From Phallusia mammillata (taxonomy: Eukaryota): a stretch of DNA of 64,000 nt. This document shows, in pieces, positions 3,001 through 15,000 of the stretch. How positions within the stretch are numbered: position 1 is the first letter of the stretch; every line of letters starts with the position of its first letter. The stretch is taken from assembly GCA_965637545.1 (NCBI GenBank), contig OZ281498.1:20956001-21020000 (forward strand), given 5' to 3'. The position numbers were made by a program.

Positions 3001-6000
3001 TACACTTAACGAAATACCACAGGGATTGCTGTAAGATTAGTTGGTATAATGCTTTCGAGGGAATATGCATGTCGCCTATTAGCATCTTAAGTTTCGTTAT
3101 AAGCGATGCATACATTCCTCCCTTGTTGCCCTAGTATGCTATTCGCTAAAAAGTAAAGTTTATTCTAAACTACGGACTATATAAAACAGGTTGGGTCTTA
3201 AATAAAACGAAGTTACACCACAAAGATGAACGTACACATTTTTTGAGTAATTAATAAAAATTAAAAGTCGAATTTTGCAAACTTGCTTGTATAACTGCTT
3301 AAAGAAAACGTTTAAACTTTTTGAAAACTGGTCCATACTTCTGTTTAAAACCAGATTTTTTGTTTTTGGATAAAGTACTTCATTTGAAAAAGTCAAAATA
3401 GTTGTCAAAACCGTATGTTTACAAATATATAGACTGTCAGAAGTTTCTTTTTAGAAGTTTAAAGAAGTTAAATAAATATTTAGCTGAATACTTCACCAAT
3501 CATTGTTCTGGAAACAGCTGAAACTGTTGCAGTAATTGTTCGTTGAACGATTTTCGAAGAAAGACAAGAACTGGTACTAACCAAGTTGGACATAACGTAA
3601 CATTAGGATAAAAATACTCAAAATTAACCATGATCCGTTATCAAGACGTCACATAGTAAATCTCAGAAAGAGTTTAAATCTAATCGAAACGTTATCATCT
3701 CGGAAATCAAGTTAGCATTAACTTATGATGTCACTAAACTGCTTGTTTTAAATAAATATGTAGTTATGACGTCATGTTTTTTGACGAAAAATTTTGTGAG
3801 CGCACTTATGCCCTGAAACAACGGGTCGTACAGTGACGTCACCATGTTTCAAACTTTAGTGTGTAACTGTTGCATAAATACTGTAATAAAGTGGTAAAAG
3901 TTAAAGCAAATACCTAATGTAGGTGTGCAGAAAAACTTCAGAAGTGTCATACAAAGCCAATTAATTCCCAAGAACGTAACTCGAATAACTTGATATAACC
4001 ACATTGCCCAATTGCAGATAGACAATTAATTTGCACATAGGTTAAAAGTACAGTTGATGTCAATTCGACTTCGAATAATGACATACCTTTTTATTTTTGT
4101 ATTTTATTTACTTTGTTGTTACCAATTTTTTATTTAAAGTTTATGATTTACTGGGTGGTTACAAATTTGGGCGAAAACGTGTCTTTTACGAAATATAAAT
4201 TTAATTCGGTAATTTTGACTGTAAATGCTTTATATCGAAGTGCTGTCAGATTTTGACAGACTAAGCGTTTTTTCGAAACAAAAAAGCCTTAACAAAGCAA
4301 TACGGGCGCTCACATACCAAAATGCCAAAACATGCGACAGCATCGTTACAGAAAATAGTCTGACTTCTGAGAAGACCGGACGGGGTCACAAAAGGCCAGA
4401 GCAGGTACAAAATATAGAATATATCCTGGATTGTAGGATGGGCTCAGTCAATGGATATGTAATGCAATCACGAATTGGGTTTACCGTGAAACGTTGTGAA
4501 CATAAAAATCCCCACTATGTAGACAATTTACAAACACCGTGCATGAATATGGAAATAGTTCCGGTAACAATACACGTTTTGGCGAAACTTATTTAAATTG
4601 GTCGTGAAAAAAATGGCTTGCTTGGAAGGATAAGCATTTCGCGTTAAAAAGTGGGTTTCTTAAAATGCGCAAAAAGCTTTTGTGTTAATACGTTATGCGT
4701 TATCGTCATGGCCAACACTATTTTTTTATTAGAATGAATAAAATACTACAGTCGAAAAAATGACTTTAAAAAATCTTCTTTAAAGTGACAAAGAACGTTT
4801 TTTTTTAAAGGATACTATCAATTGACACTAGACGAAGACTTTTGAAAGTTAATGGATAAAAAAATGCCAAAGAGACTAAATGTAGGTTGACTCGTTCCAG
4901 GCAAATAATATTAGTTGTATTTGTTTTTTTACATTGTGTTTTTTTACAATCTAATAAAAAAAACAACGATTGTTAAAACGTTTGCAAAGAATTTCTTTAT
5001 TATAATACATCTTTCTGGCAGTTTTGTTTTTAATCAATGTAACAGTTTTCACAGTAGGTGGTTGAATTAGTCAGCATATCGATCCGAAAATCAAGACGCC
5101 AATTAAATATCATCCAAACCCTGTGAATGCAAATAGGACACAGAAATAAAACGTTCAAACTAACACGTTCAGCTCGCAAACCAAGACTTCGTGTTGGGCT
5201 GTCTGTTTGCCGCAGGTAGCACACCACGTGACACCATCACGATTGTGACGTCATTATAGGGAGGAAAGAAGTGTCAGGCAAGAAAGAGACGATGGGTCGC
5301 TGCTACCTAGAGCATAATTGCAACGGCCTTTCGCAGTGCGGTTGTGTTTTGAATTCGTTATCAAATAGTTTTAATGTGGGACTATGGGATAACGGTTTAA
5401 ACTGCCACCTTCCGTTGAGAATTTGCGTGCAGCGTAGATGTATAGCGGTAACTATGTTTTATTTCAATAAAAAGACTCATTGCATCAGAGAGTAGACGTA
5501 TATCAGTTAGAATATAAATATTTTGGTTATAAACTTGAACGAAAAGTTAAACAAGTGCTAATTCTTAACTTTAGGGTAAGCGAAGTATGTTTAACTCAAT
5601 TAAAAGTTACTCAAAACTCAAAGCTTTTTTAACGAAGTAGTTTCTAAAAAAATATTTTACTGTACAGTTGAAGGGTTAGAGAAGTGAATTAGTAACCCGT
5701 ATATAGTTAACCATGAGGTCATCATTCGTTGCTACCTGCTGCCTGTTGCTATGCGCTGTGACATCATCAACAGCGCAGTTCGATCTGAATTTCAACATCG
5801 ACGATATGCTTGTTAAGGATTACCTCTTTTGGCGCGCCATTTTCTCAATCACGCAAAACACAGGTGAGTGTGTGTGACGTCACTATGGCGTTCAGTGACA
5901 TCATAGACTATGTGTTAAATAGAATGATGCAACACAAGGTATCCTTTGAAAAATCAAGGTGTACGGATATTTAAACGCGAAAAATTTGGGTCACAGAAAT

Positions 6001-12000: not shown

Positions 12001-15000
12001 TTTTTTCCCCACAAATATTATTTTCAAATATTTTACTTTGAATTTATTTTTGACAGCTATTTCTGACGAGTGTCCCCAAACTTGCCACAAAGACGGATTA
12101 TGTCTTCGATCCACCATCGGTTTCTCGCAATGCGTTTGCAAATTGGGATACGACGGCGACGGAATACGTCAATGCACACGTACGTATTTCATACTGTTAT
12201 ATTTGGTTCTATTTGAATAAGGAAAATGTGATGCTATCATAACACAAACTTGCTAAACATAAGTAAGTAAATAAATCTTTCTATTTCAAATATGTTTAAG
12301 GCACTTTCGCAAATGGTTTTAAAATGCATTTCAATACTTCATGGGTCCACCATTAAAAGACAATGTTTAACTAAGCGCTCATTGCAAAATGTCAATCTTG
12401 CATGTATGACCAATTTAAAAATACATTTAAGTGAAACTAGTCACTTTTTGCAGCCGATTCGCCAACAGTACTAAACACTGTTCCTCCCGTATCTGCTGTG
12501 TGCAATCCAACTTGTGGACAAAATGCATTTTGCAACGCCGGGCGGTGTCAATGCCTCGACAACCATGTTGGAAATGGATTTAACTGCGTTCGTAAGTACA
12601 ATACTTCTATTATTGATTAACAAGTGATGGAATACTGGTGTACGGGCCTTTTAAGAAAAAAATTACCATCAAACCAGTTTATCATTATGATTTGCTAGAA
12701 GCGCAAAGCCTATTTATATAAAAGTCTATTGATGTTTTGCATTACCATTTCGCTGAAGCTGTAATTATTATTTTTGCTTATTACTGTTTGTGGGACTTGT
12801 TTTGAAATAAATTGTTTTTTAATAATGTGCAAGGAAGTTTAACTAAACAAAACATTCAATTTTTTTAGCGCTTAGCTCGATCACTGACTTGGGTCCGCCA
12901 CCGTCAGAATGCAACCCTGATTGTACAGACAACGCTGAATGCGTAAAGTCCGATGACCGCTACGTATGTCAGTGCAAAAGCGGATACGTAGGCAACGGAA
13001 TAACCTGCCGAATCTGTGAGTCTAAAAAGGCTACCAAATATAAAATAACCATTTGTCTGACAAATCGTTGCAAAGATACCGAATTAGTATGAATAACAAG
13101 AACGTATTCCAGTGGTTTACAACCTTTGTAGTTCATGGTCCCATAAAGTAACCCTTAAGAGCCCGTTCTATCAAAAATGTAACAGGTAAACTTGTGAAAC
13201 CTAAAGTCATGGGTCATGTCGGTAATCACGACACCTTATTTAACACGAAAATGCCTAAAAAGGTAATTTTGACAACACGAAGGTGTTTAAGTTGGGTCCC
13301 TAAAACACCTGTATATAAATCACTGTCACTATATTTATTGTTGGCCGCCAGGAAACACTCCCTTTTGGGGGTCATAGGCTCCGGTTTGGAAACTCTGCCC
13401 TAAACGTTAAGGAAGATTTTTTAGCCATTGCCGTTTTATGATAATAGCTCTTTTGCCTGAGAGATCAATTAATATATGCCTGCTGGTTACATTGAAAGTA
13501 TACCTTGTTAATTTGTACTTTTTCTCTTTTACAGCCCCCAACGCAATAGCTGACCCAGTCGACCAACCCCAACCCCTACCGCCCCAAATAACACAGCCCC
13601 AGCCCCAACCCCAACCTCAAGCGGATCGAAACGACAACTGTGACGGTCGATGTCACGATAGAGGTTATTGTTTTACCTACAGGTCAAAATCAGAATGCCG
13701 ATGTCATCGTCCGTACACGGGAAATGGCTTTTACTGCTCCAGTAAGAAGAATTTATTTTGATGAAAGGCATAAAACGCCATACCTTATGACAGACCCACA
13801 TTTAGCTAATTTCGATAGGTAGCGCAAAAGCATTTTTACCCATTTAAAACGATATCTGTAAAAGTGATCACGGTTAGGACTTTTAGGGTCGGGGTAAAGT
13901 ATAAGCTTTAAAATTTGAATAAAGCTAGCAATGGAACTTAGTTCCTAATAGAAGTTTTTTAAAAACTTACATCCTAACCCTTTCCTTCTTCAGATGCTAA
14001 ATAAATAATTCAGCTCTTTGCGCTACCTCGAAAACTAGCTATAAATGTGGGTCTGCCGTGAAGTAAGGTGTGAGTAGCTCTACCTTATTTTGTAACCACT
14101 GTCAAAGAGTTGATGTAGTCTATTGGATTTTATAATGACAACTATACTTGACAATTTATTTATTTGGGTTAGCAAAATTTTCAGTACAAATTTTGTGAAT
14201 TTTATCGACGAATTTTGTTTTAATGTTTCGCAGACCAAATGGATTATAGATGCAGATCGGAAAATAATGGAGAAGGCTGTAAAGAAAGTGAAGTATGTCG
14301 ATTTAACGGATTTCGCTTCAGATGTTACATATGGCGTCGTCCTTTTTAAGGTACGTATAATGACACATTATAGACCTGTAAGTTTTATAAACATTTATGC
14401 TCCGCCAAATCAGTTCATGATCGTGAAAATAGCTACTTAAGAAAAAGTTACACAAAAAGAAGCAATGCGCTAAATCAGAGTGCTTTAAATTCTGGCCTGT
14501 AGCTTATGTGCGGCCCGCAAACACTTTTTACATACAATTATCAAATCAATTCAAGTAGCCACAGCCTAACGCTCATCATCACATTGCTGCTCAATGTGTA
14601 TCTCATTTAGTAATACTCTTTAGTTGTGAGAGTAGATTTTAAAGATTTTCGTTTTTAAATCTTTTCAAAACATGTTTGCAATTTTTTGAAATTTTAGAAA
14701 GCAGTTCCTGAAATTAAAAATCTCTTTTGGTTGCAGGATTTAAGGCAAGAAGTTGATACCAGTTCGTTTGTTCCACTACATTTTGTTGTACATTTGTCTG
14801 GATTTTCTGAAGGGCATCTCTCCGTCACTTAATTTGTGTGTATTTATGTATGTGGAGATGCACAAATAAATAAATAATAAACGAAAAAATCGTTGTGGCT
14901 GTTAGCAAAGATGATGAAACAGTTTTGGCCATTTAGTTTTCAGTATTTTAATATTTTTTTAATATTGTATTTTAATATATGCTCAATAGACAAATACGGT

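What the first reader, a model, noticed from the sequence alone, without database searches (positions are those of the whole stretch)
5713..14349. Orphan secreted protein built from 12 EGF modules, one per symmetric exon, with no anchor or partner domain
Seen: signal peptide, a short unique segment starting with Gln, then 12 EGF_3-like repeats separated by Pro/Thr-rich linkers (including a QP repeat) and a basic, aromatic tail. There is no transmembrane, ZP, vWF or enzyme domain, and mostly no calcium-binding EGF consensus. Established: EGF-array secreted proteins act as structural or recognition molecules in marine invertebrates, for example mussel adhesive plaque protein Mfp-2 and the ascidian vitelline-coat sperm receptor HrVC70, whose precursor also has a ZP domain that is absent here. 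Inference: a lineage-specific tunic, adhesive, mucus or gamete-recognition protein. Because every module exon is phase 1-1, any subset can be skipped or duplicated in frame, giving combinatorial isoforms or length polymorphism.
Basis: partly seen in the sequence, partly recalled or inferred. Interest (0 to 1): 0.65.

Follow-up and report, generated by a model that had tools for sequence, protein, structure and literature searches.

The report
Secreted 12-EGF-module protein gene, ascidian
This is a real but fairly ordinary sea-squirt gene for a secreted protein made only of twelve EGF modules, one per exon, whose function and exact 3' end remain unknown.

Summary
On the + strand, 5713-14349, there is a 14-exon model. 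It has a signal-peptide exon, 12 exons each encoding one six-cysteine EGF module with a Pro/Thr/Val-rich linker, and a possible 37-residue tail exon. All 12 module exons are phase 1-1 with lengths divisible by 3. A cysteine pattern finds exactly these 12 modules in all six frames of the 64 kb, against a mean of 0.02 in shuffles. Pfam calls them EGF_3: 7 of 12 reach the curated cut-off, and none reaches the calcium-binding EGF cut-off. No ZP, transmembrane or other domain lies in the introns or flanks. An IFT88 gene starts 1.26 kb downstream, and it is 98% identical to Phallusia mammillata IFT88, so the window is an ascidian. No ortholog was found, but the searches were exon by exon and Phallusia is poorly covered in the collections, so "orphan" is only weakly supported. 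The tail exon is unproven: two shorter 3' ends are equally possible. Phase 1-1 EGF exons are textbook. Verdict: a new member of a known kind, function unknown, most likely an extracellular scaffold or binding protein. Interest is low to moderate.

The parts
5713..5863 (+). Exon 1: start codon, signal-like hydrophobic N-terminus and a 29-residue unique segment; phase-1 donor
   Evidence: It is the only candidate first exon between 3000 and 7507 with a hydrophobic start and a consensus phase-1 donor. No Pfam family. No relatives found.
7508..7672 (+). Exon 2: 17-residue Pro-rich linker + EGF module 1 (phase 1-1, 165 nt)
   Evidence: EGF_3 32.8 bits. AlphaFold2 core pLDDT 84-89 with a beta hairpin; the best PDB fold matches are EGF modules.
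7786..7923 (+). Exon 3: EGF module 2 (138 nt; C1-C2 spacing 2 instead of 3)
   Evidence: EGF_3 28.8 bits.
8372..8497 (+). Exon 4: EGF module 3 (126 nt); member of the younger subfamily with exons 6-8
   Evidence: EGF_3 36.5 bits.
9001..9141 (+). Exon 5: EGF module 4 (141 nt), the most divergent of the regular modules
   Evidence: EGF_3 19.7 bits, below the cut-off.
9676..9816 (+). Exon 6: EGF module 5 (141 nt)
   Evidence: EGF_3 36.3 bits.
10504..10644 (+). Exon 7: EGF module 6 (141 nt)
   Evidence: EGF_3 34.1 bits.
11110..11238 (+). Exon 8: EGF module 7 (129 nt); 80% DNA identity to exon 4
   Evidence: EGF_3 34.1 bits.
11568..11687 (+). Exon 9: EGF module 8 (120 nt, 4-residue linker)
   Evidence: EGF_3 24.6 bits, below the cut-off.
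12057..12179 (+). Exon 10: EGF module 9 (123 nt, 4-residue linker)
   Evidence: EGF_3 21.1 bits, below the cut-off.
12454..12591 (+). Exon 11: EGF module 10 (138 nt; short C3-C4 loop of 4)
   Evidence: EGF_3 14.3 bits, below the cut-off.
12869..13015 (+). Exon 12: EGF module 11 (147 nt)
   Evidence: EGF_3 39.6 bits, the best of the 12.
13535..13741 (+). Exon 13: 34-residue linker with the QP repeat + EGF module 12 (207 nt), a basic, divergent module
   Evidence: EGF_3 20.3 bits. Its only relative in 1.84 billion representatives is P0241.
14234..14349 (+). Candidate terminal exon: 37 full codons, 4 Cys, basic and aromatic, stop TAA 14347-14349. Unverified.
   Evidence: No Pfam family, no match to the module profile, no Atlas hit.
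13994..14005 (+). Alternative terminal exon start: strong acceptor (18 of 20 pyrimidines), 3 codons then stop, AATAAA at 14000

Best explanation
This is an intact protein-coding gene of a Phallusia (mammillata or a very close relative) genome. It encodes a secreted, non-enzymatic, unanchored extracellular protein of about 660 residues.

Shown:
- The architecture is a signal-like N-terminus, a 29-residue unique segment, and 12 EGF_3-type modules. These modules do not fit the calcium-binding type. Each has six cysteines in a nearly fixed spacing (C-x3-C-x5-C-x9-C-x-C-x10-C). Pro/Thr/Val-rich linkers of 4 to 34 residues join them.
- The array grew by in-frame tandem duplication of a single class 1-1 exon. 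Exons 4, 6, 7 and 8 are the youngest copies.

Inferred:
- The product is a 'beads on a string' rod of rigid disulfide-bonded modules on extended, possibly O-glycosylated spacers.
- It works as a multivalent scaffold or binding protein in an extracellular layer (matrix, egg coat, tunic or mucus). It is not an enzyme or a membrane receptor.

The C-terminus is open. It may be a 37-residue Cys-containing basic tail, a 3-residue end, or a 6-residue read-through end. None of these adds an anchor.
For: Gene structure: 12 of 12 module exons have AG/GT sites in phase 1-1 and lengths divisible by 3. All 12 keep six Cys, although protein identity between modules is only 20-68%. DNA similarity between copies stops at the exon edges. 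This argues for selection on the coding parts.

Domain identity: EGF_3 matches 12 of 12, and 7 of 12 reach the cut-off. A profile of the modules matches 32 distinct PDB sequences, all EGF-bearing proteins (Notch1, NELL1/2, uromodulin, COMP, thrombospondin-2, MSP1). The AlphaFold2 model of module 1 has core pLDDT 84-89. Its best PDB fold matches are EGF modules at 1.5-1.7 A over 33 columns.

Secretion and no anchor: the only hydrophobic stretch is at the N-terminus.

No partner domain: 0 of 66 other + strand frames inside the gene had a Pfam hit at E<=0.01. In the flanks, 68 of 69 frames had no hit above a curated cut-off; the 69th is the TPR-rich frame of the next gene.

Boundaries: IFT88 starts at 15607.

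Taxon: 98% identity to P. mammillata IFT88.

Same kind elsewhere: an ascidian protein of Clavelina lepadiformis (P0093, 391 aa) also has a hydrophobic N-terminus, read as a signal by eye, followed by EGF-type modules. Its listed Pfam families are EGF-type only.
Against: No transcript, protein or expression data were available, so expression and splicing are predictions.

The signal peptide was judged from hydrophobicity and by eye, not by a predictor.

Five of 12 modules fall below the EGF_3 cut-off.

Foldseek gave 0 matches at E<=0.001, which is expected for a 34-residue domain but still weak.

The scaffold or binding role is inferred from architecture alone. EGF arrays also act as soluble signals.

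The terminal exon is not settled.

The spliced model was never searched or folded as one chain, so features that depend on the whole protein were not examined.
Confidence: 0.7

Rival explanations
1. It is an egg-coat sperm-binding or allorecognition protein of the HrVC70 type. It would be made directly as a free EGF array rather than cut from a ZP-domain precursor.
For: [quoted passage not shown] HrVC70 is the 12-repeat product (PMC9265791, passages). Here there are also 12 modules, followed in one model by a 4-Cys tail. The host is an ascidian.
Against: No ZP domain is present in the gene, its introns or its flanks. The next gene starts 1.26 kb after the stop. None of the 120 best profile hits carries PF00100. 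The Ciona homologue CiVC57 has a vWF domain, 24 EGF-like repeats, ZP and a transmembrane domain, so the count of 12 is not conserved in that family. The tail does not match the module profile. No HrVC120 sequence could be obtained for a direct comparison.
Confidence: 0.1
2. It is a secreted larval signalling protein of the Hemps / Ci-meta1 kind, acting in settlement and metamorphosis.
For: Ascidians have secreted EGF-repeat proteins with that role. Hemps has 4 EGF-like repeats + 3 novel Cys-rich repeats. [quoted passage not shown] Hemps has no Ciona ortholog, so such genes are lineage-specific (PMC3760835, passages).
Against: No module here reaches the calcium-binding EGF cut-off (0 of 12). 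No other Cys-rich repeat type is present apart from the doubtful tail. No sequence comparison with Hemps or Ci-meta1 was possible. No expression data.
Confidence: 0.1
3. The model is incomplete. These exons would be part of a larger gene whose other exons (upstream of 5713, or spliced past 14349) add an anchor or another domain.
For: Exon 1 could in principle be entered from an AG at 5705-5706. The exon-13 donor is strong, so some downstream exon is probably used.
Against: The frame is closed by TAG at 5704-5706, just before exon 1. Exon 1 starts with a signal-like sequence. No Pfam domain above cut-off occurs in the 44 frames of 45 aa or more between 1 and 5819, or in the 24 frames of 35 aa or more between 13592 and 15583. 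IFT88 occupies the + strand from 15607.
Confidence: 0.05
4. It is a decaying or unexpressed duplicate: an EGF-array relic that merely keeps open frames.
For: The product is absent from the protein collections searched.
Against: All 12 modules keep all six Cys and the two near-invariant Gly, despite 20-68% identity between modules. All 26 splice sites are canonical. The absence is explained by poor coverage of Phallusia: the IFT88 hit is a 98% match, not the window's own protein.
Confidence: 0.05

Closest known systems
EGF_3 (PF12947) module arrays in extracellular proteins (nidogen, stabilin-2, fibrillin-like and 'mucin-like' proteins of invertebrates and fishes)
   Same: Module type and cysteine framework are the same. 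The module profile scores best against such arrays (Owenia 417 bits, Branchiostoma 'FBN3' 372 bits, nidogens, stabilin-2).
   Different: Those proteins are 830-2000 residues and carry partner domains (NIDO/G2F/LDL-B, FAS1/Link, CUB, SRCR, lectin and others). This one has EGF modules only. Per exon, the best single-module scores are only 15-31 bits and are scattered over unrelated proteins, so none is an ortholog.
Clavelina lepadiformis uncharacterized protein LOC143465192 (P0093, 391 aa)
   Same: It is ascidian. It has a hydrophobic N-terminus, read as a signal by eye, followed by an array of EGF-type modules, and its listed Pfam families are EGF-type only. It is among the six best single-module matches for 4 of 12 exons. 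It is the best for exon 13 and shares a six-residue string there.
   Different: It is shorter and lacks Pro/Thr-rich linkers. The similarity is weak (19-27 bits per module), so orthology is not shown.
HrVC70 / HrVC120 (Halocynthia roretzi vitelline-coat sperm receptor) and CiVC57
   Same: It is ascidian, with 12 EGF-like repeats after a signal peptide and then an incomplete EGF-like element (PMC9265791, passages).
   Different: HrVC120 and CiVC57 end in a ZP domain, and CiVC57 also has a vWF and a transmembrane domain. None of these is present here. The sequences were not compared.
Hemps (Herdmania) and Ci-meta1 (Ciona)
   Same: They are secreted, lineage-specific ascidian EGF-repeat proteins (PMC3760835, passages).
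   Different: Hemps has 4 EGF + 3 other Cys-rich repeats. Ci-meta1 has 13 calcium-binding EGF repeats, and this gene has none at the Pfam cut-off.
Mussel foot protein Mfp-2 (recalled, not from a call)
   Same: It is a secreted protein made almost only of tandem EGF repeats.
   Different: It comes from a different phylum, and its adhesive chemistry depends on DOPA, which cannot be judged from sequence. Tyr is 3.7% of residues here.

Membership tests
EGF_3 domain (Pfam PF12947) | Score at or above the curated gathering cut-off (28.5 bits) | tested here: met
   7 of 12 modules reach it (28.8-39.6 bits). The other 5 score 14.3-24.6 bits.
EGF_3 domain (Pfam PF12947) | Six cysteines in the EGF framework | tested here: met
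   12 of 12 have six Cys. The spacing is exactly 3-5-9-1-10 in 6 of 12 and within small changes in the rest.
EGF fold | Small disulfide-rich fold with a central beta hairpin that superposes on solved EGF modules | tested here: met
   Tested for module 1 only. AlphaFold2 core pLDDT is 84-89, with a hairpin at residues 26-30/38-42. Every one of the 45 listed Foldseek PDB matches carries EGF modules (NELL1 1.5 A over 33 columns), but 0 matches have E<=0.001.
Calcium-binding EGF (Pfam PF07645, EGF_CA) | Score at or above the cut-off (27 bits); N-terminal acidic D/N-x-D/N-E/Q-x-C motif (motif recalled) | tested here: not met
   0 of 12 reach the cut-off; the best is 23.8 bits, in exon 6. The linkers before C1 are Pro/Thr/Val-rich, not acidic.
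Class 1-1 (symmetric) module exon | One module per exon, with phase-1 introns on both sides | tested here: met
   12 of 12. The definition is taken from PMC3927616 (passages).
HrVC120 / CiVC57 egg-coat proteins | C-terminal ZP domain | tested here: not met
   There is no PF00100 hit in 69 flank frames or 66 intragenic frames. Only 1.26 kb separates the stop from IFT88.
HrVC120 / CiVC57 egg-coat proteins | Sequence similarity to HrVC120, HaVC80 or CiVC57 | not tested
   No tool returned these sequences. 0 of the 120 best profile hits carry a ZP domain.
HrVC120 / CiVC57 egg-coat proteins | Expression in gonad and presence in the vitelline coat | not testable with these tools
   No expression or proteome data can be reached.
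Nidogen / stabilin / fibrillin-type EGF proteins | Family-specific partner domains (NIDO, G2F, LDL-B; FAS1, Link; TB) | tested here: not met
   No such Pfam family occurs inside the gene or in its flanks.
Hemps / Ci-meta1 | Three novel Cys-rich repeats (Hemps) or 13 calcium-binding EGF repeats (Ci-meta1) | tested here: not met
   There are no cbEGF modules. The only non-EGF Cys-containing piece is the single doubtful tail. The sequences themselves were not compared.

The most novel reading that the evidence does not exclude
The gene is a ZP-less, directly secreted counterpart of the HrVC70 sperm receptor. It would be a 12-module EGF recognition protein of the Phallusia egg coat. Its one-module-per-exon layout would let individuals differ by exon number or exon skipping. 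That would make it a new kind of gamete or self/non-self recognition locus in a species without a known one.
Probability: 0.07. Interest if true: 0.6.

Novelty: new member of a known kind. Interest (0 to 1): 0.25.

Why it matters
If it is expressed, this adds one more lineage-specific secreted EGF-array protein to the ascidian extracellular repertoire. It is also a tidy example of array growth by duplication of a class 1-1 exon. It would matter more if it proved to be an egg-coat or larval adhesive or recognition molecule in Phallusia, a model for egg and embryo work. Nothing here shows that. It is also a probable gap in the public protein sets for this species.

Tried and rejected
- Exon 1 against 5.8 billion proteins, longer proteins only: 3 candidates, none scored.
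- Atlas look-alike search for the tail and for exon 1: no usable hit in either.
- Exhaustive phmmer of exon 13 against 1.84 billion representatives: 1 hit only (P0241, 144 aa, two EGF modules, E 2.4e-7, 42-46% identity).
- Profile of the 12 modules against longer proteins: 614 hits among 8000 candidates. The list is dominated by very long EGF arrays, with no ortholog-like protein of about 500-800 residues and about 12 modules.
- My guess that the frame 14114-14437, which overlaps the tail exon in another frame, is a LINE endonuclease remnant got no Pfam support.
- My guess that the three similar minus-strand frames at 49-60 kb are a bile-acid-transporter type also got no Pfam support at E<=0.001.
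- Literature searches for a described Phallusia EGF or egg-coat protein found nothing specific. 'Phallusia mammillata' + EGF gave 29 papers, 15 listed, none on such a protein by title or abstract. Phallusia + vitelline coat + EGF-like gave 1 paper, the general review. Ascidian + EGF-like repeats + secreted + tunic gave 4 papers, none relevant.
- PMC12992692 only cites Hemps in its reference list.
- Not done: the joined spliced protein was not built, searched or folded. Orthologous loci and synteny in other ascidians therefore stayed unchecked.
- No signal-peptide or O-glycosylation predictor was available.

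
Full report
**What is there**

The + strand between 5713 and 14349 carries a clean 14-exon gene model. Exon 1 (5713-5863) starts at an ATG and encodes 50 residues. It holds the only strongly hydrophobic stretch of the whole model. It ends at CAG|GTGAGT in phase 1. 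Among ATG-started, hydrophobic, phase-1 candidates between 3000 and 7507, it is the only one with a consensus donor.

Twelve exons follow: 7508-7672, 7786-7923, 8372-8497, 9001-9141, 9676-9816, 10504-10644, 11110-11238, 11568-11687, 12057-12179, 12454-12591, 12869-13015 and 13535-13741. Each has a pyrimidine-rich AG acceptor and a GT donor, sits in phase 1-1, and has a length divisible by three. Each encodes a linker of 4-34 residues followed by one six-cysteine module.

**Is it more than chance?**

- A six-cysteine pattern finds exactly these 12 modules in all six frames of the 64 kb and nothing else. Fifty shuffles gave a mean of 0.02 matches.
- A profile of the 12 modules finds no degenerate 13th copy among 2,901 open frames. 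The next best scores 8.4 bits, E 0.36.
- The modules are old copies, 20-68% identical in protein. Yet all keep six Cys and the glycines of the G-x-G-x-x-C end.
- DNA similarity between copies is confined to the exons.

This is a real gene under constraint, not a chance pattern.

**Domain identity**

- Pfam matches EGF_3 in 12 of 12 modules. It is the top family in 9 and above the curated cut-off in 7.
- Calcium-binding EGF reaches its cut-off in 0 of 12.
- By eye on the alignment, the residue before C3 is never Ser or Thr. So the O-fucose site as I recall it (C2-x4-S/T-C3) is absent in 12 of 12.
- The module profile hits 32 distinct PDB sequences, all EGF-bearing proteins.
- AlphaFold2 on module 1, with the other 11 as its alignment, gave pLDDT 76.5 overall. 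The EGF core scored 84-89 and the linker 59.
- Every listed Foldseek PDB match carries EGF modules (NELL1, Pfs25, thrombospondin-2, MSP1-19, uromodulin, nidogen). None has E<=0.001, as expected for so small a domain.

**Nothing else in the gene**

- None of 66 other + strand frames inside the gene has a Pfam hit at E<=0.01.
- None of the 68 flank frames other than the next gene has a hit above a curated cut-off.
- There is no second hydrophobic stretch.
- The next gene on the same strand begins at 15607. It is IFT88, 98% identical over 602 residues to Phallusia mammillata IFT88, 78% to Ciona intestinalis, 75% to Clavelina and 69% to Styela.

The window is therefore from P. mammillata or a very close relative, and the EGF gene has only 1.26 kb left after its stop.

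**The 3' end is open**

The tail exon (14234-14349) encodes 37 full codons with 4 Cys, 8 basic and 7 aromatic residues. It is the only candidate with a strong acceptor and a long frame. Two shorter ends are equally possible:
- A better acceptor before 13994 gives three codons and a stop, with AATAAA at 14000.
- Read-through of the exon-13 donor stops at 13759-13761, with AATAAA at 13918.

The tail has no Pfam family, no match to the module profile, and no Atlas look-alike. None of the three ends adds an anchor.

**Relatives**

- Exon 1 found nothing.
- The profile of the 12 modules found 614 proteins. The top of the list is made of long EGF_3 arrays with partner domains, from annelids, amphioxus, cnidarians, fishes, nidogens and stabilin-2. 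None of the 120 listed has a ZP domain, and none is the window's own protein.
- Per exon, the best single-module scores against those 120 are 15-31 bits and are scattered over unrelated proteins.
- One short ascidian protein recurs: Clavelina lepadiformis LOC143465192 (P0093, 391 aa), which has a hydrophobic N-terminus followed by EGF modules. It is in the top six for 4 of 12 exons and is best for exon 13.
- An exhaustive search of 1.84 billion representatives with exon 13 gave a single hit, a 144-residue two-module protein (P0241, E 2.4e-7). Its source could not be looked up.

So no ortholog was seen. Three limits weaken this: Phallusia's own proteins are barely represented, single exons are weak probes, and no ascidian genome could be searched. 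'Orphan' is plausible, not shown.

**How it most likely works**

Shown: a secreted-type N-terminus, 12 EGF modules that do not fit the calcium-binding type, Pro/Thr/Val-rich spacers (25%, 13% and 13% of 144 linker residues), no enzyme domain and no anchor.

Inferred: a rod of rigid modules on extended spacers, serving as a multivalent scaffold or ligand in an extracellular layer.

The array grew by in-frame duplication of a class 1-1 exon. Exons 4, 6, 7 and 8 are the youngest set (49-68% protein identity, 74-80% DNA identity). That exon symmetry is the general rule for such modules (PMC3927616, passages). It allows skipping or copy-number change but does not show it.

**Comparison with known ascidian EGF proteins**

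- CiVC57 has a vWF domain, 24 repeats, a ZP domain and a transmembrane domain (PMC9265791, passages).
- The count of 12 plus a Cys-containing tail is a striking resemblance. But the defining ZP domain is absent, and the repeat number is not conserved within that family.
- Hemps (4 EGF + 3 other Cys-rich repeats) and Ci-meta1 (6 EGF + 13 calcium-binding EGF) are secreted, lineage-specific metamorphosis proteins (PMC3760835, passages). The module make-up differs here.
- None of these sequences could be compared directly.

**Verdict**

Function and isoforms are untested, and 'orphan' is only weakly supported. This is a new member of a known kind, of low to moderate interest.

Noticed in passing
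window 5713-14349 (all 14 exon translations): There is not a single N-x-S/T sequon in a secreted-type protein of about 660 residues. Within-exon shuffles give 6.15 +/- 2.2, and only 7 of 5000 shuffles give zero. This may reflect avoidance of N-glycans, or may follow from the constrained EGF sequence.
   Followed up: partly
window 13994-14005 and 13742-13761: There are two alternative short 3' ends for the EGF gene. One is a strong acceptor before 13994 with stop and AATAAA at 14000. The other is read-through to a stop at 13759-13761 with AATAAA at 13918.
   Followed up: partly
window 15607-18054, + strand: An IFT88 gene. Its first long exon is 98% identical to Phallusia mammillata IFT88, which places the window in that species or a sibling.
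   Followed up: yes
window 21971-35452, - strand: A large BIG/ARFGEF-type gene with Sec7, HUS, HDS and BIG2_C domain pieces in separate exons.
   Followed up: partly
window 49003-49434, 53149-53598, 59820-60209, - strand: Three similar open frames of 129-149 aa, hydrophobic and then acidic, about 4-6 kb apart. They look like last exons of three tandem paralogs. No Pfam hit at E<=0.001.
   Followed up: partly
window 6762-6952 and 63017-63195: A dispersed repeat, 84% identical over 191 nt. One copy lies in intron 1 of the EGF gene.
   Followed up: no
window 14114-14437, + strand, a frame other than the tail exon's: A 108-codon open frame overlaps the candidate tail exon. By eye it has a motif that recalls LINE endonucleases. 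There is no Pfam support.
   Followed up: partly
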